Assembly: GCF_053078305.1 (NCBI RefSeq) | Contig: NZ_CP166879.1 | Strand: one strand, 5' to 3' | DNA: 64,000 bases | Made by a program: the position numbers and the translations under genes | The notes under the pieces: model-generated | The model's input: the letters and a program-made list of their open reading frames with translations, nothing else | The model's database searches: none | Told to the model about the DNA's origin: nothing | In this document: positions 2,639-35,576 of the stretch, one piece after another | Numbering within the stretch: position 1 is the stretch's first letter | Layout of the letters: every line of letters starts with the position of its first letter

Positions 2639-3337
2639 TTAAACGCTTTCTAACTGTTCTGCTGTGATGCTACCCAGATGTTGCGTTTTTCCTGCCAGAT
2701 AGCGTGTTTTAAAGCGGGTAAAATGCTCGCCTAACCCTGCTGCCGCCCCGGTATCGCCGGCCATATCTAACAGTGCGATGGCTACCTCGGCAGTACAATA
2801 TTGGCCTTCAGCCTGGGCTTCACGCAGGCGATAGGCAGAAAGCCGGGAAAGATCGACGGAAATGACGGGAAGATTATCCAGATACGGACTTTTACGAAAC
2901 ATCTTGCGAGCTTCCGGCCAGGTACCATCGAGCATGATAAACAGCGGTGGCTTACCGGCAGGTGGTGTGAAGATCACTTCCCGTTGCTCATCAGCATACG
3001 AGGCGGGAAAGACCACCATTGGCTGATAATCCGGGTTTTGTACCAGATCCAGCAAATCCTGCGAGGGTTCGGTACGCGACCATTGAAACGCAACGGTATC
3101 AGGCAAAATATCAGCAATCAGACGCCCGGTATTACTGGGCTTCATTGGCTCGGTGTCGAACATCAGCAAACAGAAGCGACTTTTTGCTTCCGCTGGCGTG
3201 ATTGTTGAACAGAGACATAATTTCTCTGGCAAAAGACAGCGTTGGCAGCGACGAACGCGATTACCGCGGGCAAGAAAAGGACGTGTTGCGCGCGCAATAC
3301 GTTCGGCGCGTAACTGGAGAACAGCGTTTTCGGTCAT
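2639..3337 (-). CDS. yfiP: DTW-domain tRNA-uridine aminocarboxypropyltransferase (YfiP/TapT)
   Basis: ORF 2639..3388 contains MTENAVLQLRAERIA... and a DGTW motif; start chosen at internal Met to give 232 aa as in K-12. Confidence 0.8.
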   Translation of the reverse strand: MTENAVLQLRAERIARATRPFLARGNRVRRCQRCLLPEKLCLCSTITPAEAKSRFCLLMFDTEPMKPSNTGRLIADILPDTVAFQWSRTEPSQDLLDLVQNPDYQPMVVFPASYADEQREVIFTPPAGKPPLFIMLDGTWPEARKMFRKSPYLDNLPVISVDLSRLSAYRLREAQAEGQYCTAEVAIALLDMAGDTGAAAGLGEHFTRFKTRYLAGKTQHLGSITAEQLESV

Positions 3338-7239: not shown

Positions 7240-8121
7240 ATGGATCTGCGCCGTTTTATTACGCTTAAAACCGTGGTGGAAGAGGGTTCCTTTTTGCGAG
7301 CTTCGCAAAAATTGTGCTGTACACAATCGACGGTGACTTTTCATATTCAGCAGCTTGAGCAGGAGTTCTCAGTCCAGTTATTTGAGAAAATTGGCCGACG
7401 GATGTGCCTCACTCGCGAAGGTAAAAAGCTGCTGCCGCACATTTATGAACTCACCAGAGTGATGGATACCCTTCGTGAGGCTGCCAAAAAGGAGTCGGAT
7501 CCAGACGGGGAACTACGCGTTGTTTCGGGCGAAACGTTGCTCTCTTACCGAATGCCGCAGGTGTTGCAGCGTTTTCGGCAACGCGCCCCAAAAGTGCGTT
7601 TATCGTTGCAGTCTCTGAACTGTTACGTGATCCGTGATGCGCTATTGAATGATGAGGCCGATGTCGGGGTTTTTTATCGCGTAGGGAATGATGATGCCCT
7701 GAACCGACGAGAATTGGGTGATCAATCGCTGGTGCTGGTAGCTTCACCGCAAATTGCAGATGTCGATTTTACTGAGCCGGGAAGACATAACGCCTGTAGC
7801 TTTATTATCAACGAACCGCAATGTGTATTCCGGCAGATATTTGAGAGCACGCTGCGCCAGCGGCGGATCACGGTGGAAAATACCATTGAGCTGTTAAGCA
7901 TTGAAAGTATCAAACGTTGTGTCGCGGCGAATATCGGTGTCAGTTACTTGCCCCGCTTTGCGGTGGAAAAAGAGCTTGAGAGCGGAGAATTAATTGAATT
8001 GCCTTTTGGCGAACACTCGCAGACCATTACGGCAATGTGCGCTCACCATGCCGGAAAAGCGGTTAGCCCGGCGATGCACACTTTTATTCAGTGTGTTGAA
8101 GATTGTTTTTTGCCGGGATAA
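7240..8121 (+). CDS. yfiE: LysR-family transcriptional regulator YfiE
   Basis: MDLRRFITLKTVVEEGSF... HTH plus LysR substrate-binding domain; 293 aa from internal Met of ORF 7195..8121. Confidence 0.8.
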   Translation: MDLRRFITLKTVVEEGSFLRASQKLCCTQSTVTFHIQQLEQEFSVQLFEKIGRRMCLTREGKKLLPHIYELTRVMDTLREAAKKESDPDGELRVVSGETLLSYRMPQVLQRFRQRAPKVRLSLQSLNCYVIRDALLNDEADVGVFYRVGNDDALNRRELGDQSLVLVASPQIADVDFTEPGRHNACSFIINEPQCVFRQIFESTLRQRRITVENTIELLSIESIKRCVAANIGVSYLPRFAVEKELESGELIELPFGEHSQTITAMCAHHAGKAVSPAMHTFIQCVEDCFLPG

Positions 8122-13630: not shown

Positions 13631-14586
13631 TGAAGCAACTTTGGTTTGCCATGTCATTAGTGACAGGTAGCCTGTTATTCTCTGCTAACGCCTCGGCCAC
13701 TCCCGCGTCCGGGGCGTTATTACAGCAGATGAACCTGGCCAGTCAGTCACTGAATTACGAGCTGTCATTCATCAGCATCAATAAACAGGGTGTTGAGTCT
13801 CTGCGTTATCGACATGCACGCCTCGATAACCGTCCTCTTGCACAATTGTTGCAAATGGATGGCCCGCGCCGGGAAGTGGTACAGCGCGGCAATGAAATCA
13901 GCTATTTTGAACCGGGCCTTGAACCGTTTACTCTTAATGGCGATTACATTGTTGATTCTCTGCCATCGCTCATCTATACCGATTTCAAACGCCTTTCTCC
14001 TTACTACGACTTTATCTCCGTCGGGCGCACGCGTATTGCTGATCGTCTTTGTGAAGTTATTCGCGTGGTTGCTCGTGATGGCACACGCTACAGCTACATC
14101 GTGTGGATGGACACCGAATCGAAATTACCGATGCGGGTTGATCTTCTTGATCGCGATGGTGAAACGCTGGAACAATTTCGCGTGATTGCTTTTAACGTCA
14201 ATCAGGATATCAGCAGCAGTATGCAGACGCTGGCGAAGGCAAATTTGCCGCCGTTGCTTTCTGTTCCTGTAGGTGAAAAAGCTAAATTCAGCTGGACGCC
14301 AACCTGGTTGCCACAGGGTTTTAGCGAAGTTTCCAGTAGTCGACGTCCGCTACCGACGATGGACAACATGCCTATCGAATCACGTCTCTATTCCGACGGA
14401 TTATTCAGCTTCTCGGTAAACGTTAACCGCGCTACGCCATCGAGCACCGATCAGATGTTGCGCACCGGACGCAGAACCGTCAGTACAAGCGTACGTGATA
14501 ACGCTGAAATCACCATTGTCGGTGAACTGCCGCCGCAAACGGCGAAACGCATTGCCGAGAATATTAAGTTCGGGGCAGCGCAATGA
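13630..14586 (+). CDS. rseB: Sigma-E regulatory protein RseB
   Basis: 318 aa with signal peptide MKQLWFAMSLVTGSLLFSANASA; operon position after rseA. Confidence 0.9.
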   Translation: MKQLWFAMSLVTGSLLFSANASATPASGALLQQMNLASQSLNYELSFISINKQGVESLRYRHARLDNRPLAQLLQMDGPRREVVQRGNEISYFEPGLEPFTLNGDYIVDSLPSLIYTDFKRLSPYYDFISVGRTRIADRLCEVIRVVARDGTRYSYIVWMDTESKLPMRVDLLDRDGETLEQFRVIAFNVNQDISSSMQTLAKANLPPLLSVPVGEKAKFSWTPTWLPQGFSEVSSSRRPLPTMDNMPIESRLYSDGLFSFSVNVNRATPSSTDQMLRTGRRTVSTSVRDNAEITIVGELPPQTAKRIAENIKFGAAQ

Positions 14587-15062
14587 TCAAAGAGTGGGCT
14601 ACCGTCGTCTCCTGGCAAAACGGGCAGGCGCTGGTCAGTTGTGATGTTAAAGCCTCATGCAGCAGCTGCGCTTCACGCGCCGGTTGCGGTAGCCGCGTGT
14701 TGAATAAACTTGGCCCGCAAACCACGCATACCATTGTCGTACCCTGTGATGAGCCGTTAGTGCCGGGGCAAAAAGTGGAATTGGGGATCGCCGAAGGCAG
14801 CCTGCTTAGCTCCGCATTACTGGTTTATATGTCGCCGCTGGTGGGATTATTCCTCATCGCTTCGCTATTTCAGCTACTCTTTGCTTCTGACGTCGCAGCA
14901 TTATGTGGTGCGGTCCTCGGCGGTATTGGCGGGTTCCTGATTGCGCGTGGCTACTCGCGTAAGTTTGCTGCCCGGGCAGAATGGCAACCGATCATCTTAA
15001 GCGTGGCATTGCCGCCTGGCCTTGTGCGATTTGAAACATCTTCGGAAGACGCGAGCCAGTGA
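14583..15062 (+). CDS. rseC: RseC (SoxR-reducing system component)
   Basis: 159 aa, Cys-rich N-terminus and two TM helices; overlaps rseB stop. Confidence 0.88.
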   Translation: MIKEWATVVSWQNGQALVSCDVKASCSSCASRAGCGSRVLNKLGPQTTHTIVVPCDEPLVPGQKVELGIAEGSLLSSALLVYMSPLVGLFLIASLFQLLFASDVAALCGAVLGGIGGFLIARGYSRKFAARAEWQPIILSVALPPGLVRFETSSEDASQ

Positions 15063-15259
15063 TTTCACTGGCTTTGTTGCATTTTGCATAACAAATGCGA
15101 GGACGTTTCCAGATACCACAATCCATACGGTATGAACATTTCCTCGCCTCAATGTTGTAGTGTAGAATGCGGCGTTTCTATTAATACAGACGTTAAGCTC
15201 AGAACAGCGACTTCTAAAAGCCTGGTTAACCGGGCATTAAGGCACAATAATCATACTTT

Positions 15260-17059
<1,800 letters not shown>

Positions 17060-18100: not shown

Positions 18101-18189
18101 TATGAGATAAATCTCCCGTGGCTAACGACATCCCCCGTCGTTGTGTATAGAATATTCCCCCGAAGTTTAAGGTTGGCACCTCCAGGTTG

Positions 18190-19904
<1,715 letters not shown>

Positions 19905-21767: not shown

Positions 21768-21793
21768 AAATAATACCGTTCTCTTTAAAAAGT

Positions 21794-21826
21794 AAAACCC
21801 CCGAACTGGTAAGGAACGGGGGTTTT
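21794..21826. terminator. Bidirectional hairpin terminator (acpS operon / ohsC)
   Basis: aaaaccccc-g...c-gggggtttt perfect palindrome with flanking A/T runs on both strands. Confidence 0.7.
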
Positions 21827-21890
21827 ACTTTGTAACTTTAATTTAGTGCAGCACGCACCCTCAACAACAGCGATTATGGATCAGGGTAGT
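21795..21890 (-). ncRNA. ohsC: Putative OhsC antitoxin sRNA of the shoB/ohsC type I toxin-antitoxin locus (boundaries approximate)
   Basis: Lies divergently upstream of shoB, ends at the palindromic terminator, and contains tgcagcacgcaccctcaacaa, a near-copy of tgcagcatgcaccctcaataa in the shoB 5' UTR (22094..22114). Confidence 0.4.
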
Positions 21891-25923: not shown

Positions 25924-25985
25924 TAATACACCTATGGTAGAATATGTGTCAATTCTCTCTCTATATATAACTAACGGAGGCGGGT

Positions 25986-26783
25986 ATGCCCCTGGCAAAA
26001 ATACTTACAAAACAAGTTTCTTTATTAACTGTTTTTTCAGCGTTAGCTTATGTGATGGCATATTCTTTTCAGAAAGGTGTTGCATCGTATTATGGCTATC
26101 CAGCCCTTTTTATTAAAATAGATTTAAATACGCTATTGTATTCGGCTGTATGGCTTTTGTTTTTTAGTTTTTTATTTCTCGGTGCCTTATACGCGACATT
26201 GATGTTTGATTTGAAAGGGAAATATTATGTTCCATTTATTATATTTATAGTGGTTATGCTAATACCTAATTTTTACATAATAGGATTCCATTGGCCTTTT
26301 GGTTATTTCTCAGAAACCTCTGTGATGAGTGTTGGAGATATTTTATTATTTGCTCTGCTTTTGTTGAATTACCACAATGCGGTGTCCGCGTCAATCCATA
26401 GTAAGAGACACGAACATCATATGGATAGCATTAGAAAATTTGGGAGGCTTGCAGAGTATAAAGACGTATTTTATTATATCGATTTAAAAATCCTAAAATC
26501 AGCTTTTCCTTTAGGGGTGATGACATTATTGATATTGAGCTATACCTTCGGGAAGGTTACTGCATTTAAAAATAACGAATATTATATGGTAGATGGTAGT
26601 AATACTAAAGTGTTGCTCAATTCATTTGGTAGTGGTTTTGTTGTTGGTGATTGTGAGTCCAATAGCGCAAAATTTGAATTTGTTAATGATTTAAAAGGGA
26701 TGAAATTCACAGTCATGTCCTCTAAAAAGGAAATAGCTAAATTAAAAGAGTGTTTCGAAACACGTGTTAAAAATACGGATTAA
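25986..26783 (+). CDS. AT-rich multi-pass membrane protein of unknown function (cargo)
   Basis: 265 aa, at least four hydrophobic helices; strongly AT-rich codon usage versus neighbours; ggagg RBS 6 nt upstream; extended -10 TGgTAGAAT at 25945..25953. Confidence 0.5.
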   Translation: MPLAKILTKQVSLLTVFSALAYVMAYSFQKGVASYYGYPALFIKIDLNTLLYSAVWLLFFSFLFLGALYATLMFDLKGKYYVPFIIFIVVMLIPNFYIIGFHWPFGYFSETSVMSVGDILLFALLLLNYHNAVSASIHSKRHEHHMDSIRKFGRLAEYKDVFYYIDLKILKSAFPLGVMTLLILSYTFGKVTAFKNNEYYMVDGSNTKVLLNSFGSGFVVGDCESNSAKFEFVNDLKGMKFTVMSSKKEIAKLKECFETRVKNTD

Positions 26784-27125: not shown

Positions 27126-27677
27126 TTAGCGACGGCTGGGATGAATTTTTTCACGGAGAACTAAGGTTAGTTGTTCTAGTGTCAATGGCTCGCCAAAATT
27201 CTCATGAAATAATGGATTGAATACATGCATCATGCGTTCGTATGTTGCCAGCGAAGGCGTGTGAGAATTAAGATCTCTTAATTTGAATTCTTCAAATCTA
27301 TCCAGTTTATTGATGACGAAATCAGCGGCTGCAAGATACTCAGTTTCGTTATTTCCATCGAATCCTTTGAATATTGGATTTTTTCCAAATAACTCAACAT
27401 TTTCTTTTAACTTCTTTTTTTCTTCTTCTGTAAGTTCACTGTAGCTATATTCAATAACTCTCCACATATCTAGGATGTCTAGAACTTTTTTTACAACACG
27501 TGGAGTTTCGGTATTTTTAAATGGAATACCACTAAATTTCCAAGGGAGTGCCCATGTTTGGTTTTCGAATATAGCATCACGGACAAATGTGTGATCGATT
27601 TCGCCTTCAATCTCGTTTTTATCGTACAGGTCACACAGCATCATTAGAATTAGTTTTTCGCCATCTGAAAGTTGCAT
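27126..27677 (-). CDS. YfbU-family (UPF0304)-like protein, function unknown (cargo)
   Basis: 183 aa; blocks M.LSDGEKLILMML, VKKVLDILDMW, FKGFDGNNETEYL...RFEEF and YERMMHVF resemble E. coli YfbU as recalled from memory; AT-rich. Confidence 0.45.
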   Translation of the reverse strand: MQLSDGEKLILMMLCDLYDKNEIEGEIDHTFVRDAIFENQTWALPWKFSGIPFKNTETPRVVKKVLDILDMWRVIEYSYSELTEEEKKKLKENVELFGKNPIFKGFDGNNETEYLAAADFVINKLDRFEEFKLRDLNSHTPSLATYERMMHVFNPLFHENFGEPLTLEQLTLVLREKIHPSRR

Positions 27678-27682
27678 GTTTT

Positions 27683-28192
27683 TTATCCTTGAGTGTTAAA
27701 CGTTAAATCATCAACGAGTAGATCTATGTGAGGTTGAATAGCCAATATTTTTGCATGCAAAACTCTACCTGTTCTTAACTTTTCCGCAGGAGTTTTTGCA
27801 TCTGAAAGCTCAGAAATATTTTCCCTTATTTCAGCACAAAAATTTTCTGAGTCTATGCTCAATTTTACTTTATTGTTAGGTTTTATTGCTTGGGCTGCAA
27901 ATAAATCGATGAAATCCTCTATTTCAGAAATTATTGGTTCTAAACTTATGCCTCGAACATTTTCCTCATTCGAACCAGGACCAATTGCTCTTAGAGATTT
28001 TATGGCGGTTGATAACTTTCCATGAAGGTTGCCTGCGTCCCTTATACTACGTTGATAATTGACCGTAGCTAAAGCCTTTTGAGCTTCTGTGGCGGCATCC
28101 CGCGACTTTTTCCACCCCCATAGTGAACACATAGCACCAACTATGGTAACAAAAGTACCTATCCTTGATAGCCAGACATCTGTATTTTCCAT
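27683..28192 (-). CDS. Membrane-anchored protein of unknown function (cargo, upstream partner of the YfbU-like gene)
   Basis: 169 aa, single N-terminal TM helix (WLSRIGTFVTIVGAMCSLWGW) then soluble domain; 5-bp gap to downstream gene; AT-rich. Confidence 0.45.
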   Translation of the reverse strand: MENTDVWLSRIGTFVTIVGAMCSLWGWKKSRDAATEAQKALATVNYQRSIRDAGNLHGKLSTAIKSLRAIGPGSNEENVRGISLEPIISEIEDFIDLFAAQAIKPNNKVKLSIDSENFCAEIRENISELSDAKTPAEKLRTGRVLHAKILAIQPHIDLLVDDLTFNTQG

Positions 28193-28277
28193 TAAAGCAC
28201 CAAAAACAATCTGTTAAGGATAGCTATATGATACATATATCTTCAATGATGTCATGTATCTGATTTGTGAGCTGTGA

Positions 28278-30341
28278 TCAGTCCTTACGGTAGTGGTACG
28301 CCTCAAAACCGCCAGCGTTCAGTGGGATATCGGGCGCCCATTCGGGGTTAGTGGAGAGAAGCGCGGAAAGCGCTTTATCGTTGAAATCTTCTGTGTCAGG
28401 TGCTTCGGTGATCACCTCGTCGTGTACCGTCAGCACAATGCTGTAACCGGCATCTTCGATAAGCGGCATGTTTCCGGCCAGAACGTCGCGGGCGGCCGCT
28501 TGGGTGACGTTCTCCACCAGCTTTCCGCCGTAGGTTTTGAGTCGTTGCCATTTACGTGAATAAGAGTTAACACCCATATAGGTGATATTCCCTTTTTCGA
28601 TAATCGGAGACGGGTAGCATACAGCGCGTCCAGATGGCAGCTGTATGCGCAGCCACGCGCCATCACGTCGGATTTTAAGATAGCCGCAATACAATGTTTT
28701 TTGCGGTGTGGCGATTGCAGTGCGGACGGTGCGCTCCAGTTCGTACCAGAAATCACAGGTCGCGGGATGCGCCCGGCGCCAGAGACGTTTAAGTGAGTCG
28801 CAGGCGATAAATACCCGTTCAGAAAGCCCGTAGGTTGACTTGCGTTTAACCGATTCGTCGTACCAGCTTTTCGCCTCGCGGATAACATCGCGGGGAATGT
28901 TTGGTAGTGCGGCGTTCGCCAGCTCGTCGAGATCGAGACCGTAAACCAGTGCAAAAGTGATGAAGGCCGACACACCACCACCATAACCCAGACCGAGTTC
29001 CATGACTTTACCGATCTGACGCATGTGTTTATCAACATCATCTGGTGCAATATCGAAAGCTTTTGCATACGCCAGTTTATATAAGTCCGGACCCGTTCCG
29101 GCGTCGTACTCTCTGAATGCATTCAGTTTCCATTCTTCTCCCGCCAGCCATGCCAGCATACGGCCTTCAATGTTCGACAAGTCACTTACCACCAGCTTTT
29201 TGCCTGTTGGCGCGATAATGCAGCCACGTAACGCTGAACTGGTTAGTTCCATGATATTGTCAAACAGCAGGTCTGCACATCCGGCTTTCAGTGCTTCGAT
29301 GCCTTCGTCTATTTGTTCCTGTTTTAGTGAAGGGCGGGGAAGGTTCTGGGGCTGGAATAGCCGTCCGGCCCAACGACCGGTACGTGACGCCCCGCAGAAC
29401 TGTAGCGTACCGCGTAAGCGCCCGTCGTGGCTTACGCCTTTCATCAGTGCCTTGTATTTACTGGTGCTGGTAGTACTGGCCTGCAGGCGGATAGCCAGCA
29501 GTTCTTTCACGGCAGATGGTAAATCGGGGTCGGCAATACGACGTTCCAGAGTACTGCGTTGCATGTCTGGTAGCTCCACACCGTAGGATTCAACAATGTG
29601 CTTAATCAACGCGTCTCGTTGTGTGGCTGCCTGCACTTCGCCATCAGTCATTTCCTGTGTACGCTTTGCCAGGCGCTTTTGTTCCTGGTCTACCGCGTCG
29701 ATCGCAGCGCGTGCGAGTTCCACGTCCATGCAGACGCCCCGGTCATTGATCTGCTGATCACGATGCCAGAGCGCCAGTTCTGTCCCCTGATAATTCCACT
29801 TCGGCAGACGTTTATAGACTTCGCGCATTGCCTCGATATCCAGTCCGGCGTAAGCAACAAAGCGCCGCCATTCTTCCGGGTGGGTTTTGCTGGTGGCCCG
29901 GCGCAGTTTGCTGTTTTTCGGGCGTGGCTTACAGAACAGCTGGATCAGCGCTTTACCTTCTTTGTCCTTCGCTTTGTCTTGCGGGACGCCTAGTACTTCG
30001 CAGAGTTCCCCCAGAGACCCCGGGAGACCGTGCGCCAGCGCCTGCACCATTGTGTCGCGCCAACGTTCGACTGGCGGTGCCAGGCGCGGCATTGCATAAC
30101 GCAGAACGGTGCGGTCGAAGTGAGAGTTATGGAAATAAAGCAGGGTTTCAGGGTCTGCGATTGCTTCGTATAAGCCGTGTGGAATACCACCACCGGCAGT
30201 GATATCCCACACGTTTACTGGCCCGTCGTTGATAGCCCATGCGAAAAGCATCACTTCAACGCCTTCGGCATACGCATGGGTACCGTTCGTAATAGGGATT
30301 TCGCAATAGGTTTCCAGGTCGCCCCATAGTATATTGGACAT
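28278..30341 (-). CDS. Family-A (Pol I-like) DNA polymerase
   Basis: 687 aa; motif B-like [16 protein letters not shown] and motif C-like [12 protein letters not shown]-terminal region consistent with a 3'-5' exonuclease domain. Confidence 0.72.
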
Positions 30342-30387: not shown

Positions 30388-31017
30388 ATGCATATGATCC
30401 AATACTTGATTGACCATACAGAGCATCTGGAGAAAATAGCTGGATATATTTTTTCATGTTTGATTGTTATGGGAGTCTGGATAAGAAAGATCATTTTTAA
30501 TTATAAGTATAAAGAGCCTAAATATGTCAAGAAGTTAATTTTATATTTAGTTAAGTATGAACGTTATCTGGATGAGGAGGATAAGAGTGCCATAGAAAAA
30601 AGAATAAATGATAAAATTATTCGTGATGCGCTGAAATTGCAATCCTCTTATAACCGAAGAGATGTTATTTACATTTGCAATAGATTAGAAAAAAGACAGT
30701 ATATAAATCAGTTGATTAAGCTTCAGAATTATATAGAGAAAGATAACGGAGTGTTTTTTATTAATGTTGATTTTTCAGGTTTTTTATTTATTATTAGTCG
30801 TCTGTTTTCCTTTCTGTGTTTTGTGCTGTTTACCCTTTTTTCTATTATCTGCATTATTTCCATAGGGCAAAATGAAGGCCTTTTAAATTATCTTGTGTAT
30901 ATGGTTATGATAATAGTTTTAGAGACTGTTGGTTTTTGGATGTATGATACTTTCCCGTCTAAGAAAAAGATCTGTGAACTAAATAAAGAATTGAGAAAGA
31001 TTAAGATTCCTGAGTGA
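30388..31017 (+). CDS. AT-rich membrane protein of unknown function (cargo)
   Basis: 209 aa, one N-terminal and two C-terminal hydrophobic helices, K/E-rich middle; very AT-rich; divergent from polymerase gene. Confidence 0.5.
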   Translation: MHMIQYLIDHTEHLEKIAGYIFSCLIVMGVWIRKIIFNYKYKEPKYVKKLILYLVKYERYLDEEDKSAIEKRINDKIIRDALKLQSSYNRRDVIYICNRLEKRQYINQLIKLQNYIEKDNGVFFINVDFSGFLFIISRLFSFLCFVLFTLFSIICIISIGQNEGLLNYLVYMVMIIVLETVGFWMYDTFPSKKKICELNKELRKIKIPE

Positions 31018-31033
31018 TTATACGCCTAATCAG

Positions 31034-31058
31034 TAGCCCGGTGTTTAACCGGGCGTCT
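31034..31058. terminator. Hairpin between convergent genes
   Basis: gcccggt-gttta-accgggc 7-bp stem; no strong U-tract. Confidence 0.35.
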
Positions 31059-32937: not shown

Positions 32938-33840
32938 TTAACCCTCCAGTGCTTTTTCAGCCAGGGTGATTACTTCAGCGAGATTTTCATCCGTTACTTC
33001 ACCAAGTTTCCTGGCTCCCTGTTTTTCCAGAATTGCAATAGCTTCTGCCCGGTAACCCCCTTTTGCTAACTGGAGGATCAACCCTTCAGCTTGTTTGCGT
33101 AGTGCCGCGAAATCAATTGTATGGTCATCTTTGGCGTCATTATTCTGGCTGGAATTTGCTGCGTCTCTGCGTGCAAATTCTTCCTGCAGCTGAAGGTACT
33201 CAACACGGTTGATCTCGATATGGCCTTTTTTAAGCATCTCGTTCAACTTGCGTAAGGTGTGGAGTTCACTGGCTGCTGTGCCGGATACATTTTTGACGTA
33301 AAACGGCCCCGTGCGTTCTCCATCTTTGTTACTGGCCTTTTTCGGCTTAACTTCATCACGCCCATCTGCAGGTGCATCAAGTAGTTGCTCGGCAAAAGCA
33401 CGTCGCTCGCCGATGGTTGGCAGGTCGTCCCAGAACTTAAGAATGTTACGGGACAGGTCCAGAAGAGCGGGTTTATGCAGTGCCCTGGCTCGTTTGACGC
33501 CCTGCAATGCGCTGTCGAGAGCATCAATCTGAACTACTCGTTTATCGCCTTCAGCATCACGGTAGGCAACAGCACGTTGCAGCATGTCTTCTGTGATAGG
33601 GGTGGCTACCGGGTAGAAACCAGCCAGTGCGATAACGTCGCTGAACTCCAGATCATCCAGTGTCATTGCCGCTGACATATTTTCAGTTTCAGTTGCTGTA
33701 TCCCGACATTCCTGCACTCGTGAAATCGTGTCAGGATGCATAACAATACCTGATGCCATTGTGCGGATAAGACGTTCAAGCAGCGCATTATGTTGTGCCA
33801 GAAGTTGATTATTAAGTTCGAGACTGGTTTCTAAACTCAT
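32938..33840 (-). CDS. Hypothetical protein (replication module)
   Basis: 300 aa ORF, stop overlaps start of downstream gene; no recognisable motif. Confidence 0.45.
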
Positions 33841-33986
33841 ACTGTGGTCCTCGCAACAAGGAGAATGAAAGTGATGATCAGACCGAGCGCAGTGGCAACG
33901 GCCAGACCGGTCATCAAATCGAAGTTTTTACGGCGATAACGGAGAACATCGCGCCCCGTCAGTCGATAGAGGTGTTCAGGTTTCAT
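33837..33986 (-). CDS. Small hydrophobic protein (49 aa)
   Basis: ATG at 33986..33984; [49 protein letters not shown]; stop overlaps ATG of gene 32938..33840. Confidence 0.35.
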   Translation of the reverse strand: MKPEHLYRLTGRDVLRYRRKNFDLMTGLAVATALGLIITFILLVARTTV

Positions 33987-34102
33987 CGGTTGTATTCCTT
34001 TTTTCATATCGGGGAGCGCGCTGTTGCGAGTGCGCTTTCAGACATAAAAAAGCCCGTCACTTGCGGCGGGCAAAGACTACACACAGCAATTACATGGATG
34101 AT

Positions 34103-34297
34103 TCAGTTGGTATTGTGCGTACGTGGTACCACAAGGTTGAAGCGGACACGCCAGTGCGTTGCAATGGTATGCAGGAAAGCACCACATCCAGGGCAGTGCT
34201 CATAACATTCGTTGATTTGGTATCGTTTTGGCTTTGGTGTCTGAAGCTGTGTTTGGCAAGCAGGGCATTCACCTTTGAGCGGTTTATATGTTTTCAC
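34103..34297 (-). CDS. Small Cys-rich putative zinc-finger protein
   Basis: 64 aa with CPAC...C..HCPGC arrangement; weak support. Confidence 0.3.
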   Translation of the reverse strand: MKTYKPLKGECPACQTQLQTPKPKRYQINECYEHCPGCGAFLHTIATHWRVRFNLVVPRTHNTN

Positions 34298-34576
34298 GCC
34301 GTTTCCTCATTCAGTTCACTTTGGTGGTTCGGCGGCTTCGACTTGTATCAGTAGGCAGTGCTTCGCCGCACCCCAAAGGGAACTTACTGACCCGTATTGC
34401 CGACATCCTGTCCCGCCACGGTCCCGACGCATGGTTTAGAGTCGCGCCGTTCGACTTGTGGCTAAAGATACAATTTGAGTTGTATTGTGTAAACCACAAA
34501 CGTGGTATTTTGTGGGGTGTGAATACTACTTTATTGATATTTAAGTGAATTTAATTTGTAAGACTTTACAAATGGG

Positions 34577-34600
34577 GTAAGGGAGGCTGTTACGCCTCCC
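34577..34600 (-). terminator. Hairpin downstream of repressor gene
   Basis: gggaggc-tgttac-gcctccc 7-bp stem directly 3' of the cI-like gene on the minus strand. Confidence 0.4.
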
Positions 34601-34619
34601 GATATTTACGGTGGGAATA

Positions 34620-35243
34620 CTAACGTTTACGGCGGTAAATACGGTGTTCGATCATTACACCTATGATCTGTAAGTTCATATCTGCACTACGAAAAATAGG
34701 GTAATCAGGATTTAGGGGGATTAATTCAAAGTCGTCGATGCCGATTCCTAATGGACGGTATTTTTTAAATGTAGCTTCGTGACCGTCGTTTTTGGCGACA
34801 ACAAACTCCCCTGGTGCAGGACATAGTTCAGGATCGATGATAACAATGTCTCCTTCTTTAAACTCTGGTTGCATGCTGTCGCCATCAATACGTAATGCGA
34901 AGCATGTTTCTGGAATGTCAGAGTCTGCCAAAATATATTCAAATTCCCCTGTCAGATCTGTTATGTCTCTTGCTTCTGTAAGCTCTCCTGCCTGAACGTA
35001 ACTTAATATAGGTATGCGTCTGGTACTTATCTCCGCGAGAGGCATAATATTTTTACCGTTCAGTAGCCAGTCTGGGCTACATTTCAAGGCCTTAGCCAGA
35101 TCCAGAAGATTGCGTGGCTTTCTGGTTCGTCCACTTTCGATGGATTCTATGGATTGTTGGCTAACCCCTGCAGAATTCGCTACTTCCACTTGAGTCATTC
35201 CTAATTCCAAACGACGTGCTTTAAAACGGGCTGCGAGAGACAT
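34620..35243 (-). CDS. cI-like prophage repressor (HTH_XRE plus S24 LexA-like peptidase)
   Basis: N-terminal HTH (LGMTQVEVANSAGVSQQSIESIESG) and C-terminal GDSM...K catalytic dyad; start at MSLAARF. Confidence 0.85.
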   Translation of the reverse strand: MSLAARFKARRLELGMTQVEVANSAGVSQQSIESIESGRTRKPRNLLDLAKALKCSPDWLLNGKNIMPLAEISTRRIPILSYVQAGELTEARDITDLTGEFEYILADSDIPETCFALRIDGDSMQPEFKEGDIVIIDPELCPAPGEFVVAKNDGHEATFKKYRPLGIGIDDFELIPLNPDYPIFRSADMNLQIIGVMIEHRIYRRKR

Positions 35244-35363
35244 GGGATTAGTCCTTCTGGGTTGTATTAATGTGTATACCCACATTAAAAACAATTTTTG
35301 TTGTATTTGACAAACCTCATTTGTTGTTGCTAAATACCACTAAAATTGTATGAGGTGAAAGCA
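35244..35363. promoter_or_regulatory. Divergent repressor/cro control region with operator palindrome
   Basis: Perfect 8-bp inverted repeat ttaatgtg-N6-cacattaa at 35267..35288; TTGACA at 35307..35312 and TAAATA at 35331..35336 oriented toward cro. Confidence 0.5.
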
Positions 35364-35576
35364 ATGACCTTAGCGACCCGAGTAAAAGAACGACGTAAAG
35401 AACTCAAAATGACGCAAGTTACGTTGGCTGAGCTCACAGGAGTGAGCCAGCAGGCAATAAACAGAATTGAAAGTGGTGTTATTGCTCGGCCACGTTATCT
35501 TCTTGAAATGTCTATAGCATTGGATTGCGACCCTAATTGGCTGTTGTATGGCTCACAAAACGATAAAAAGGCTTAA
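35364..35576 (+). CDS. Cro-like HTH regulator
   Basis: MTLATRVKERRKELKMTQVTLAELTGVSQQAINRIESG; gaggtga RBS before ATG at 35364. Confidence 0.7.
   Translation: MTLATRVKERRKELKMTQVTLAELTGVSQQAINRIESGVIARPRYLLEMSIALDCDPNWLLYGSQNDKKA

What the first reader, a model, noticed from the sequence alone, without database searches (positions are those of the whole stretch)
33837..34620. Structured, largely non-coding region with short repeats and small ORFs between replication genes and the repressor
Roughly 780 bp downstream of the repressor gene contains only short ORFs (a 49-aa hydrophobic peptide, a 64-aa Cys-rich peptide), a direct repeat ttcgacttgt (34329..34338 and 34450..34459) and a hairpin at 34577..34600. 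In lambdoid phages the equivalent position holds small regulators and sRNAs, so this could encode a small RNA or micro-protein involved in the lysis-lysogeny decision.
Basis: inference. Interest (0 to 1): 0.35.

Follow-up and report, generated by a model that had tools for sequence, protein, structure and literature searches.

The report
Phage early promoter with antiterminator RNA
This stretch is the early-left control region of a dormant virus in E. coli: a repressor-controlled promoter, then a self-folding RNA of a known kind (HK022 'put') that lets RNA polymerase ignore stop signals, and then a stop signal that copies the tail of the host regulatory RNA RprA, which I could not find reported.

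Summary
The region is not a loose set of repeats and micro-ORFs. It is the early-left (PL-type) control region of an E. coli prophage.

Read leftwards from the repressor stop codon, it holds:
- a strong hairpin where sister phages carry the repressor-gene terminator (34581-34600);
- two 18-bp palindromic operators that overlap a sigma-70 promoter (34465-34508), with the same palindrome in the cI/cro intergenic region;
- a 72-nt RNA element (34387-34458, minus strand) homologous to the HK022 putL antiterminator RNA, in which every cryo-EM-defined helix can form and compensatory changes are present;
- a conserved long leader hairpin that ends at a ribosome-binding site;
- a real but exchangeable 64-aa zinc-ribbon ORF;
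- an intrinsic terminator (34046-34091) that nearly copies the last 47 nt of the host sRNA RprA, its processed form;
- a conserved 49-aa membrane ORF that opens the replication operon.

It is not beyond chance and is not conserved.

The put element is a new, unannotated member of a known kind. The RprA-like seed-plus-terminator module, whose 18-mer recurs in more than 100 phage contexts, is the less expected result and remains unproven as an sRNA.

The parts
34581..34600 (-). Hairpin about 20 nt after the repressor stop codon: terminator or 3'-end stabiliser of the repressor (PRM) transcript, insulating PL and put from read-through
   Evidence: The fold gives -16.1 kcal/mol, z -4.45. Other immunity types carry canonical hairpin-plus-U terminators at the same place. 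The Enterobacter relative keeps a hairpin with a different sequence (GGAGGGCC-CCAAC-GGCTCTCC). It has no clean U-tract, so terminator activity is inferred.
34491..34508 (.). Operator OL-b (AAACCA-N6-TGGTAT), overlapping the -35 of PL
   Evidence: The palindrome AWACMA-N6-TKGTWT has 4 exact matches in 64 kb, all flanking the repressor gene, against 0.07 expected. The pattern was derived post hoc. See also repeats D1, I2 and I21.
34468..34485 (.). Operator OL-a (ATACAA-N6-TTGTAT), overlapping the spacer and -10 of PL
   Evidence: The counterparts in the cI/cro intergenic region lie at 35289-35306 and 35334-35351.
34465..34493 (-). PL-type promoter: -35 TTTACA (34493..34488), 17-nt spacer, -10 TATCTT (34470..34465). 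The inferred start is about 34457-34459.
   Evidence: Promoter scan. It aligns column for column with the annotated HK022/O276 PL -35 and -10 and with the start of putL.
34387..34458 (-). putL-like antiterminator RNA (72 nt)
   Evidence: BLAST matches the annotated putL of HK022, HK75, O276 and HK639 at 79-84% identity, E 1e-9. The covariance model scores 92.8 bits, E 4e-20. All helices of the cryo-EM structure (PMC9378689) can form. Across 33 distinct put sequences, 95.2% of cells pair and 10 of 22 pairs show compensatory changes. The element is 100% identical in an Enterobacter bugandensis prophage whose flanks have diverged.
34313..34384 (-). Conserved long leader hairpin between put and the ribosome-binding site. 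Its variable apical part holds the second copy of the 10-mer.
   Evidence: The fold gives -28.6 kcal/mol, z -2.57. RNAalifold on 9 variants predicts 19 pairs, 3 of them with compensatory changes, and an apical loop that varies in sequence and length.
34103..34308 (-). Shine-Dalgarno GAGGAA (34308..34303) plus a 64-aa zinc-ribbon ORF (GTG 34297 to stop 34103), which is the exchangeable first gene
   Evidence: ORF list. Three homologue clusters, including Enterobacter at 76% identity, keep C11, C14, C31, C35 and C38 invariant. Pfam Zn-ribbon matches are sub-threshold. Relatives carry unrelated ORFs behind the same leader and RBS.
34046..34091 (-). Intrinsic terminator that copies the processed 3' domain of host sRNA RprA: single-stranded AAUUGCUGUGUGUAGUCUUU (18-mer core 34073-34090), hairpin 34052-34071, U6 34046-34051
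   Evidence: Rfam RF00034 scores 48.2 bits (gathering 70), E 3e-5. BLAST matches the annotated rprA in 5420 of 5426 E. coli genomes. Alignment to MG1655 rprA shows 20 of 20 identity in the single-stranded part and a compensated stem. The hairpin folds at -9.4 kcal/mol. It is conserved in all relatives even where the upstream ORF is replaced.
33837..33986 (-). 49-aa ORF with a C-terminal transmembrane helix; first conserved gene of the replication operon. Its stop overlaps the start of the 300-aa ORF.
   Evidence: phrog_11981 at E 1.4e-36, RefSeq CDS, and overlap with the ATG at 33840.
34337..34346 (.). No function assigned.

Best explanation
The region is the early-left control region of a temperate phage that has a polA/DUF2800/DUF2815/VapE replication module.

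In the lysogen, the LexA-like (S24) repressor binds two 18-bp palindromic operators that overlap a sigma-70 promoter, PL, and keeps it shut. The hairpin just after the repressor gene stops PRM transcripts from running into PL.

When the repressor is lost, transcription starts at about 34458 on the minus strand. The first 72 nt fold into a put-type RNA. By homology with HK022 putL, this RNA binds the zinc-binding domain of the RNA polymerase beta' subunit and makes the polymerase resistant to pausing and termination.

The modified polymerase passes a long leader hairpin and an exchangeable small ORF. It then reads through the intrinsic terminator at 34046-34071 and enters the roughly 10-kb replication operon.

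Shown here: the sequence and structural homology of put, its position at the promoter, the operators, the terminator, and the mosaic conservation. Inferred: actual antitermination, the transcription start, repressor binding, and the role of the leader hairpin (possibly an RNase III or pause site).

The terminator doubles as a near-copy of processed RprA. It may therefore also release a small Hfq-type RNA from transcripts that stop or are cut there.
For: Context: RefSeq annotation of an identical prophage shows a LexA-family repressor, an HTH cro-like gene, VapE primase, Q, DUF2800, DUF2815 and DNA polymerase.

Operators and promoter.

put:
- BLAST hits annotated putL, and the alignment includes the promoter hexamers.
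- HK022 numbering was reconstructed from PMC9378689.
- In the window, pairs 3-7/15-19, 10-14/30-34 and stem II all form, with compensatory changes relative to HK022: A5-U17 becomes U-A, G38-C70 becomes C-G, and C41-G66 becomes U-A.
- A8, A9, U21, C25, U28, U32, G35, G43 and the -10-like AACCAT at +23..+28 are all kept.
- The covariance model also finds HK022 putR, which was not in the training set, at E 5e-8. This shows the model is sensitive to divergent put elements.

Selection: put is 100% identical between E. coli and Enterobacter prophages whose overall alignment is 87% identical.

Module swapping: the same put, leader and RBS are joined to a different immunity region (TB06051) and to different first ORFs. 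Other relatives put a boxA-containing leader in the same slot, upstream of the same terminator.

Terminator.
Against: There is no experimental evidence for any of this in this phage.

Minimum-free-energy folding of put alone or of the whole leader is no better than shuffles (z +0.29 and -0.93). This is expected for an RNA whose fold needs polymerase and non-canonical pairs, but it gives no independent support.

The -10 hexamer (TATCTT) and the terminator (5-7 bp stem, -9.4 kcal/mol, z -0.83) are weak by consensus.

U68, whose deletion abolishes antitermination in HK022, is G here.

No second put (putR) exists for the rightward operon.

The operator pattern was derived from the same four sites that it then 'finds'.

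The put alignment came from a pattern search that fixed some columns, so invariance at CGAACGGCNCG, AGGAWG and GNCAAT holds by construction.
Confidence: 0.8

Rival explanations
1. One reading: the region encodes a trans-acting small RNA or micro-protein that takes part in the lysis-lysogeny decision, marked by the direct repeat and the hairpin.
For: Two small ORFs are real. A candidate trans-acting RNA, the RprA-like 3' module, does lie in the region.
Against: The repeat is at chance level and is not conserved. The hairpin sits at the repressor-terminator position. The GC-rich 'structured' stretch is explained by put and the leader hairpin. The 64-aa ORF is exchangeable among relatives. No conserved promoter is dedicated to a small RNA.
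Confidence: 0.1
2. The put-like element is a decaying relic of recombination with an HK022-like phage and no longer antiterminates. The left operon is expressed simply because the terminator is weak.
For: The terminator is weak. U68 is replaced by G. The upper part of stem II is one base pair shorter than in HK022.
Against: All pairs are intact, with compensatory rather than disruptive changes. The short-stem variant forms its own widespread clade with further covariation (A-U, G-C and U-G in the shortened stem). It is 100% conserved across genera while its flanks diverge.
Confidence: 0.08
3. The RprA-like sequence is only a terminator picked up from a host rprA gene, or the reverse, and has no trans-acting role. 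Its 18-mer is conserved for reasons tied to termination or processing.
For: It sits exactly where an operon-internal terminator is expected. No complement of 9 nt or more to the 18-mer exists elsewhere in the window. It has no dedicated promoter. It scores below the Rfam gathering threshold.
Against: In loci chosen through put, not through the 18-mer, the 18-mer is nearly invariant while the hairpin sequence changes freely. The same 18-mer is joined to unrelated terminator hairpins and to DicF-like scaffolds in 102 distinct phage contexts, including phages of Aeromonas and Stenotrophomonas. The conserved block starts where processed RprA starts. A terminator alone does not need an invariant single-stranded 18-mer upstream.
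Confidence: 0.45

Closest known systems
HK022 putL / putR (polymerase-utilization antiterminator RNAs; cryo-EM PDB 7XUE, PMC9378689)
   Same: The sequence is 79% identical over 85 nt, promoter included. The element sits directly at the start of the PL transcript. Stem I, with the 3-7/15-19 duplex and the 10-14/30-34 helix, and stem II can both form. The residues shown by mutagenesis to matter are conserved, as is the sigma-70 pause-like AACCAT. A terminator lies downstream.
   Different: The upper part of stem II has 3 bp instead of 4. U68 is G. There is no putR. The gene that follows is a zinc-ribbon ORF, not nun. The host phage has a polA-type replication module rather than the lambda O/P type. 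Activity is untested.
HK639 putL-like antiterminator RNA (GenBank HM208537 annotation; King et al. 2011, J Bacteriol 193:5784, cited in PMC9378689 but not readable here)
   Same: It has a single put element, in the left operon only, and the same core sequence.
   Different: The stem II sequences differ. HK639 belongs to the 'long' upper-stem class, which never co-occurs with the RprA-like 18-mer.
Lambda PL/OL - nutL - N - tL1 (established knowledge)
   Same: The logic is the same: a repressor-controlled leftward promoter, an antitermination signal in the leader, a large leader hairpin ahead of the first RBS (an RNase III site in lambda), a small first gene, and then a terminator that must be overridden.
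   Different: No N protein or nut site is present in this phage. Antitermination is presumably RNA-only. Sister prophages with another immunity region do carry a boxA-like CGCTCTTTAACAA in the same slot.
RprA (Rfam RF00034), specifically its processed form RprAproc = last 47 nt (PMC9262595)
   Same: The single-stranded AAUUGCUGUGUGUAGUCUUU is 20 of 20 identical. The terminator hairpin is homologous, with an A-U to G-C compensation, and is followed by a U-tract. The conserved block begins where RprAproc begins.
   Different: It lacks the RprA 5' domain and the rpoS-pairing region; only a CUGA(A/G)U trace remains. It scores 48.2 bits against the 70-bit threshold. It has no Rcs-type promoter, and it lies inside a phage operon as a 3'-UTR-type element.
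DicF (Rfam RF00039), prophage early-operon sRNA of Qin
   Same: It is a phage sRNA-like module in the early operon next to the immunity region. Other phages join the same 18-mer to a DicF-like GGCGG(U/C)AUCAG scaffold (L162: 41.1 bits, E 2e-6).
   Different: The window element itself gives no DicF hit at E of 10 or below. Its scaffold is a single terminator hairpin.

Membership tests
put antiterminator RNA (HK022 type) | Sequence homology to HK022 putL/putR | tested here: met
   BLAST gives 79.3% over 85 nt, E 1e-9, to annotated putL. The covariance model built from 33 put sequences scores 92.8 bits, but the window-type sequence was in the training set. The BLAST hit is the independent evidence.
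put antiterminator RNA (HK022 type) | Two-stem V-shaped fold: 3-7/15-19 duplex, 10-14/30-34 helix, stem II 36-50/56-72 | tested here: met
   All pairs form in the window sequence, with three compensatory differences from HK022. Family-wide, 95.2% of cells pair, 10 of 22 pairs covary, and slid controls pair at 26-46%. The tertiary triplex and non-canonical pairs cannot be tested.
put antiterminator RNA (HK022 type) | Residues shown by mutagenesis to matter (A8, A9, U21, C25, U28, U32, G35, G43, G45, A64) | tested here: met
   All are present in the window (residue list from PMC9378689). U68 is G, so that residue is not conserved.
put antiterminator RNA (HK022 type) | putL lies immediately downstream of the repressor-controlled early promoter and carries a -10-like pause element at +23..+28 | tested here: met
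   The promoter hexamers align with the annotated HK022 PL. AACCAT is present. The operators overlap the promoter. The transcription start itself is inferred.
put antiterminator RNA (HK022 type) | Terminators downstream in the same operon | tested here: met
   A hairpin plus U6 lies at 34046-34071, between the first ORF and the replication genes.
put antiterminator RNA (HK022 type) | Second element (putR) in the rightward operon | tested here: not met
   A full-model search of the window finds nothing better than E 1.4, while HK022 putR is found at E 5e-8. HK639 also has one element only, so this feature is not obligatory.
put antiterminator RNA (HK022 type) | Factor-independent antitermination that depends on the beta' zinc-binding domain | not testable with these tools
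   This needs reporter or in vitro transcription assays.
RprA sRNA (RF00034) | Score at or above the Rfam gathering threshold, and full-length architecture (5' stem-loops, rpoS-pairing region) | tested here: not met
   It scores 48.2 bits against 70. Only model positions of about 60-106 align well. It is not a member, but it resembles the processed 3' domain.
RprA sRNA (RF00034) | 3' domain (RprAproc): single-stranded region plus terminator | tested here: met
   20 of 20 identity in the single-stranded part, plus a compensated stem and a U-tract. The 47-nt definition comes from PMC9262595.
DicF sRNA (RF00039) | Match to the DicF model | tested here: not met
   There is no hit at E of 10 or below in 33800-35400. 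Only relatives that carry the 18-mer on another scaffold match, and below threshold.
Lambda-type N/nut antitermination | boxA/boxB in the leader and an N-like Arg-rich protein | tested here: not met
   The window leader has no boxA. The first ORF is a zinc ribbon that is exchangeable among relatives. A boxA-like sequence is seen only in sister prophages with another immunity region.

The most novel reading that the evidence does not exclude
The operon-internal terminator is a phage-borne version of processed RprA. It would be a roughly 46-nt Hfq-type RNA with an invariant 18-nt single-stranded seed, AUUGCUGUGUGUAGUCUU, released from the 3' end of the first PL transcript by termination or RNase E cleavage.

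The same seed is carried on many different terminator or DicF-like scaffolds in phages of Escherichia, Enterobacter, Erwinia, Aeromonas and Stenotrophomonas. That would make it a widespread, horizontally shuffled phage sRNA module that taps into, or gave rise to, the host RprA 3' regulon.

In this phage, put would set the ratio between making the sRNA (termination) and expressing the replication genes (read-through).
Probability: 0.3. Interest if true: 0.7.

Novelty: new member of a known kind. Interest (0 to 1): 0.45.

Why it matters
The put element is a rare mechanism: an RNA that reprograms RNA polymerase on its own, with no protein factor.

This instance is unannotated in RefSeq, and put has no Rfam family. 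The instance belongs to a distinct short-stem clade in phages that do not have lambda-type replication genes. The more than 120 put-like hits in viral contigs suggest that RNA-only antitermination is more widespread than the handful of studied cases.

The natural variants supply ready-made compensatory mutants for the cryo-EM model.

The RprA-like terminator matters more if it is functional. It would link a core enterobacterial stress sRNA to a mobile phage module found well beyond the Enterobacterales. It would also give a concrete candidate for what the poorly understood processed form of RprA does, and for how phages exploit it.

Tried and rejected
- **Rfam at gathering thresholds:** no hit in the region. 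Only the permissive scan exposed the RprA similarity.
- **Single-sequence folding:** the whole leader and put alone fold no better than shuffles, so thermodynamics alone would have missed put.
- **The tool's terminator scan:** it missed the 34046-34071 terminator because its loop and bulges fall outside the scan's rules.
- **Search for a putR:** neither the pattern nor the covariance model found one.
- **The direct repeat as a functional element:** rejected on chance level and lack of conservation. I also considered that it marks the ends of an inserted put cassette. The recombination joints in relatives lie near the repeat, not at it.
- **Alternative ORFs on both strands across the region:** no PHROG match.
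- **A target for the 18-mer inside the window:** none with 9 nt or more of complementarity.
- **Pas prophage sRNAs (bioRxiv 2026.05.13.724894):** checked as a possible prior description of the RprA-like element. PasB lies among structural genes, PasA/C/D lie near lysis genes or Q, and RprA is not mentioned.
- **Literature searches:** no report of phage RprA-like sequences or of the 18-mer itself.
- **King et al. 2011 (put-like RNAs):** could not be read, so I cannot say whether this prophage group was already on their list.
Full report
**Context.** The window is E. coli chromosome (Rfam hits AsrC, rncO and ohsC at 14.5-21.9 kb) carrying a prophage integrated next to yfhL. An identical prophage in strain FDAARGOS_1059 is annotated in RefSeq. 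Its genes, translated to window coordinates, are:
- integrase;
- a roughly 10-kb leftward operon with helicase, VRR-NUC, a TIR protein, DNA polymerase (28278-30341), DUF2815, DUF2800, a 300-aa ORF and a 49-aa ORF;
- a LexA-family repressor (34620-35243, minus strand);
- a cro-like HTH gene (35364-35576, plus strand);
- VapE primase, Q, lysis genes and head genes.

RefSeq annotates nothing between the 49-aa ORF and the repressor, which corresponds to window 33987-34619.

**Checking the observation.**
- Both small ORFs exist on the minus strand.
  - The 49-aa ORF matches phrog_11981 (E 1.4e-36). Its stop overlaps the start of the 300-aa ORF.
  - The 64-aa Cys-rich ORF (GTG start, GAGGAA Shine-Dalgarno) has only three homologue clusters. 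They include an Enterobacter bugandensis prophage protein at 76% identity, and five Cys are invariant. Pfam zinc-ribbon matches are below threshold.
- The hairpin is real (34581-34600, -16.1 kcal/mol, z -4.45).
- The 10-bp repeat is exact, but it lies at 34337-34346 and 34450-34459.
  - 26% of shuffles and 44% of real 784-bp windows carry a repeat at least this long.
  - It is degraded or deleted in relatives.
- Other ORFs on either strand have no family match.

**Promoter and operators.** An 18-bp palindrome, A(T/A)AC(A/C)A-N6-T(T/G)GTAT, occurs at 34468-34485 and 34491-34508, and at 35289-35306 and 35334-35351. A weaker copy lies at 35312-35329.
- These are its only four exact occurrences in 64 kb, against 0.07 expected. 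The pattern was derived from these same sites.
- The two left copies overlap a minus-strand promoter: TTTACA, a 17-nt spacer, then TATCTT (34493..34465).
- This is the arrangement expected for OL/PL on one side of the repressor gene and OR/PR/PRM on the other.

**The put element.** A sensitive BLAST of 34095-34625 against phage genomes hit window 34385-34469. The matches were sequences annotated as putL antiterminator RNA and the PL -10 in HK022, HK75, O276 and HK639 (79-84% identity; annotations).
- The alignment runs from the -35 hexamer through the whole put element.
- I rebuilt the HK022 numbering from the cryo-EM paper (PMC9378689). The window RNA, with position 1 at 34458, can form every helix:
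  - 3-7 with 15-19;
  - 10-14 with 30-34;
  - stem II, 36-50 with 56-72.
- Three pairs differ from HK022 by compensatory changes. Stem II has a 3-bp rather than 4-bp top.
- The residues that mutagenesis marks as important are kept, and so is the -10-like AACCAT at +23..+28. The exception is U68, which is G.
- A pattern scan of IMG/VR returned more than 120 contigs and 48 distinct cores.
- On 33 putL-type sequences, the cryo-EM structure pairs 95.2% of cells against 26-46% for slid controls. Ten of 22 pairs change on both sides. Some columns were fixed by the search pattern, but the covarying ones were not.
- A covariance model scores the window at 92.8 bits. It also recovers HK022 putR, which was not used to build it, at E 5e-8. 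It finds no second put in the window.
- Put is 100% identical in the Enterobacter prophage, although the 680-column alignment is only 87% identical overall.
- Rfam has no family that matches put, even at E of 10.

**Leader hairpin and the exchangeable first gene.** Directly after put, 34313-34384 folds into a long interrupted hairpin (-28.6 kcal/mol, z -2.57).
- Nine variants support 19 pairs, three of them with compensatory changes. The apical part varies in sequence and length and holds the second copy of the 10-mer.
- The hairpin ends 5 nt before the Shine-Dalgarno.
- The block of put, hairpin and RBS behaves as a module:
  - it is joined to another immunity region in strain TB06051;
  - it is joined to at least four unrelated first ORFs in other relatives.
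- Its role is unknown. By analogy with the RNase III hairpin in the lambda N leader, it might separate polymerase-bound put from the mRNA. This is speculation.

**The terminator is an RprA 3' domain.** A permissive Rfam scan matched 34042-34151 (minus strand) to RprA (48.2 bits, gathering threshold 70, E 3e-5). Only the 3' part aligns well.
- BLAST of 75 nt hits the annotated rprA gene in 5420 of 5426 E. coli genomes.
- Against MG1655 rprA:
  - the single-stranded AAUUGCUGUGUGUAGUCUUU is identical;
  - the terminator stem differs by a compensated A-U to G-C change and one mismatch;
  - a U6 tract follows.
- This segment equals the last 47 nt of RprA, the processed form that coexists with full-length RprA in vivo (PMC9262595).
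- In the prophage family, this block is kept even where the upstream ORF is replaced, and the stop codon of each alternative ORF lies in its conserved CUGA.
- In loci chosen through put, 21 of 32 short-stem put loci have the 18-mer downstream. It is nearly invariant while the hairpin sequence varies. None of the 75 HK022- or HK639-type loci has it.
- The 18-mer also occurs in unrelated phages: the Erwinia N4-like Ea9-2 group, an Erwinia jumbo phage, Aeromonas pAEv1818, Stenotrophomonas BUCT708/709 and Escherichia LLS/Eeyore.
- It occurs in more than 120 IMG/VR contigs with 102 distinct flanks. About half of those flanks are terminator hairpins. The rest are a DicF-like scaffold.
- I found no report of this in the searchable literature.
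- Whether it acts in trans is untested, and no target lies in the window.

**Mechanism.**
1. Repressor loss opens PL.
2. The nascent put RNA modifies RNA polymerase.
3. The polymerase passes the RprA-like terminator and later obstacles to express the replication operon.
4. Transcripts that stop or are cleaved at the terminator could yield a roughly 46-nt RprAproc-like RNA.

Sister prophages carry a boxA-like leader in place of put, upstream of the same terminator. This supports the view that this slot is an antitermination slot.

**Verdict.** The core is a new, unannotated member of the put family within a standard PL/OL architecture. The RprA-like module is the unexpected element and deserves experimental follow-up.

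Noticed in passing
L005 (E. coli 89-3156) about 2750-3120 and L001 (phage vB_EcoM-606R2) about 7250-7460; alignment A2 columns 201-213: Sister prophages with a different immunity region have no put. Their leader begins with a perfect boxA-like CGCTCTTTAACAA and lies upstream of the same RprA-like terminator. No N-like ORF was seen. An RNA-only system and a nut-type system appear to have been swapped at one slot.
   Followed up: partly
L019, L049, L027, L061, L018, L096 (downstream of put) and L005: A conserved strong Shine-Dalgarno and a three-codon mini-ORF (AUG UGC/CAC AAG UAA), followed by GC-rich hairpins, lies in the leaders of many related phages. Its function is unknown.
   Followed up: no
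IMG/VR loci L136-L251; phage loci L130-L135: The exact 18-mer ATTGCTGTGTGTAGTCTT occurs in more than 120 viral contigs with 102 distinct flanks. It is joined either to terminator hairpins or to DicF-like scaffolds, and it appears in phages whose hosts (Aeromonas, Stenotrophomonas) are not known to me to have RprA.
   Followed up: partly
window 35289-35351: The cI/cro intergenic region holds three evenly spaced copies (23 and 22 bp apart) of the operator palindrome around a TTGACA (35307-35312) promoter. The layout resembles lambda OR1-3.
   Followed up: partly
window 25926-26723 (+), 30388-31017 (+), 27452-28213 (-): Two opposite-strand genes are inserted in the leftward replication operon. 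One of them is a 209-aa ORF. A TIR-domain gene also lies there. These are moron or defence candidates that leftward transcription must cross. A GC hairpin sits at about 31035-31055, between DUF2815 and the insert.
   Followed up: no
window 33927-33939 and 34626-34638: A 13-nt near-repeat, TTTACGGCG(A/G)TAA, lies in the 49-aa ORF and at the repressor gene's 3' end. Both stretches encode YRRK, so it is probably coincidence.
   Followed up: no
L162 4-136 (-) and the upstream flanks of many 18-mer sites: The sequence beside one DicF-like 18-mer element (L162) matches STnc100 (RF02076, 42.1 bits, below threshold). The upstream flanks of many other 18-mer sites carry a similar GGAGGCACC...CCACAAC motif. 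This suggests that these small phage RNA modules occur in clusters.
   Followed up: no
window 14547-15378, 18162-18376, 21789-21865: Host-flank Rfam hits AsrC, rncO and ohsC are above threshold. They confirm that the left part of the window is E. coli core chromosome.
   Followed up: no
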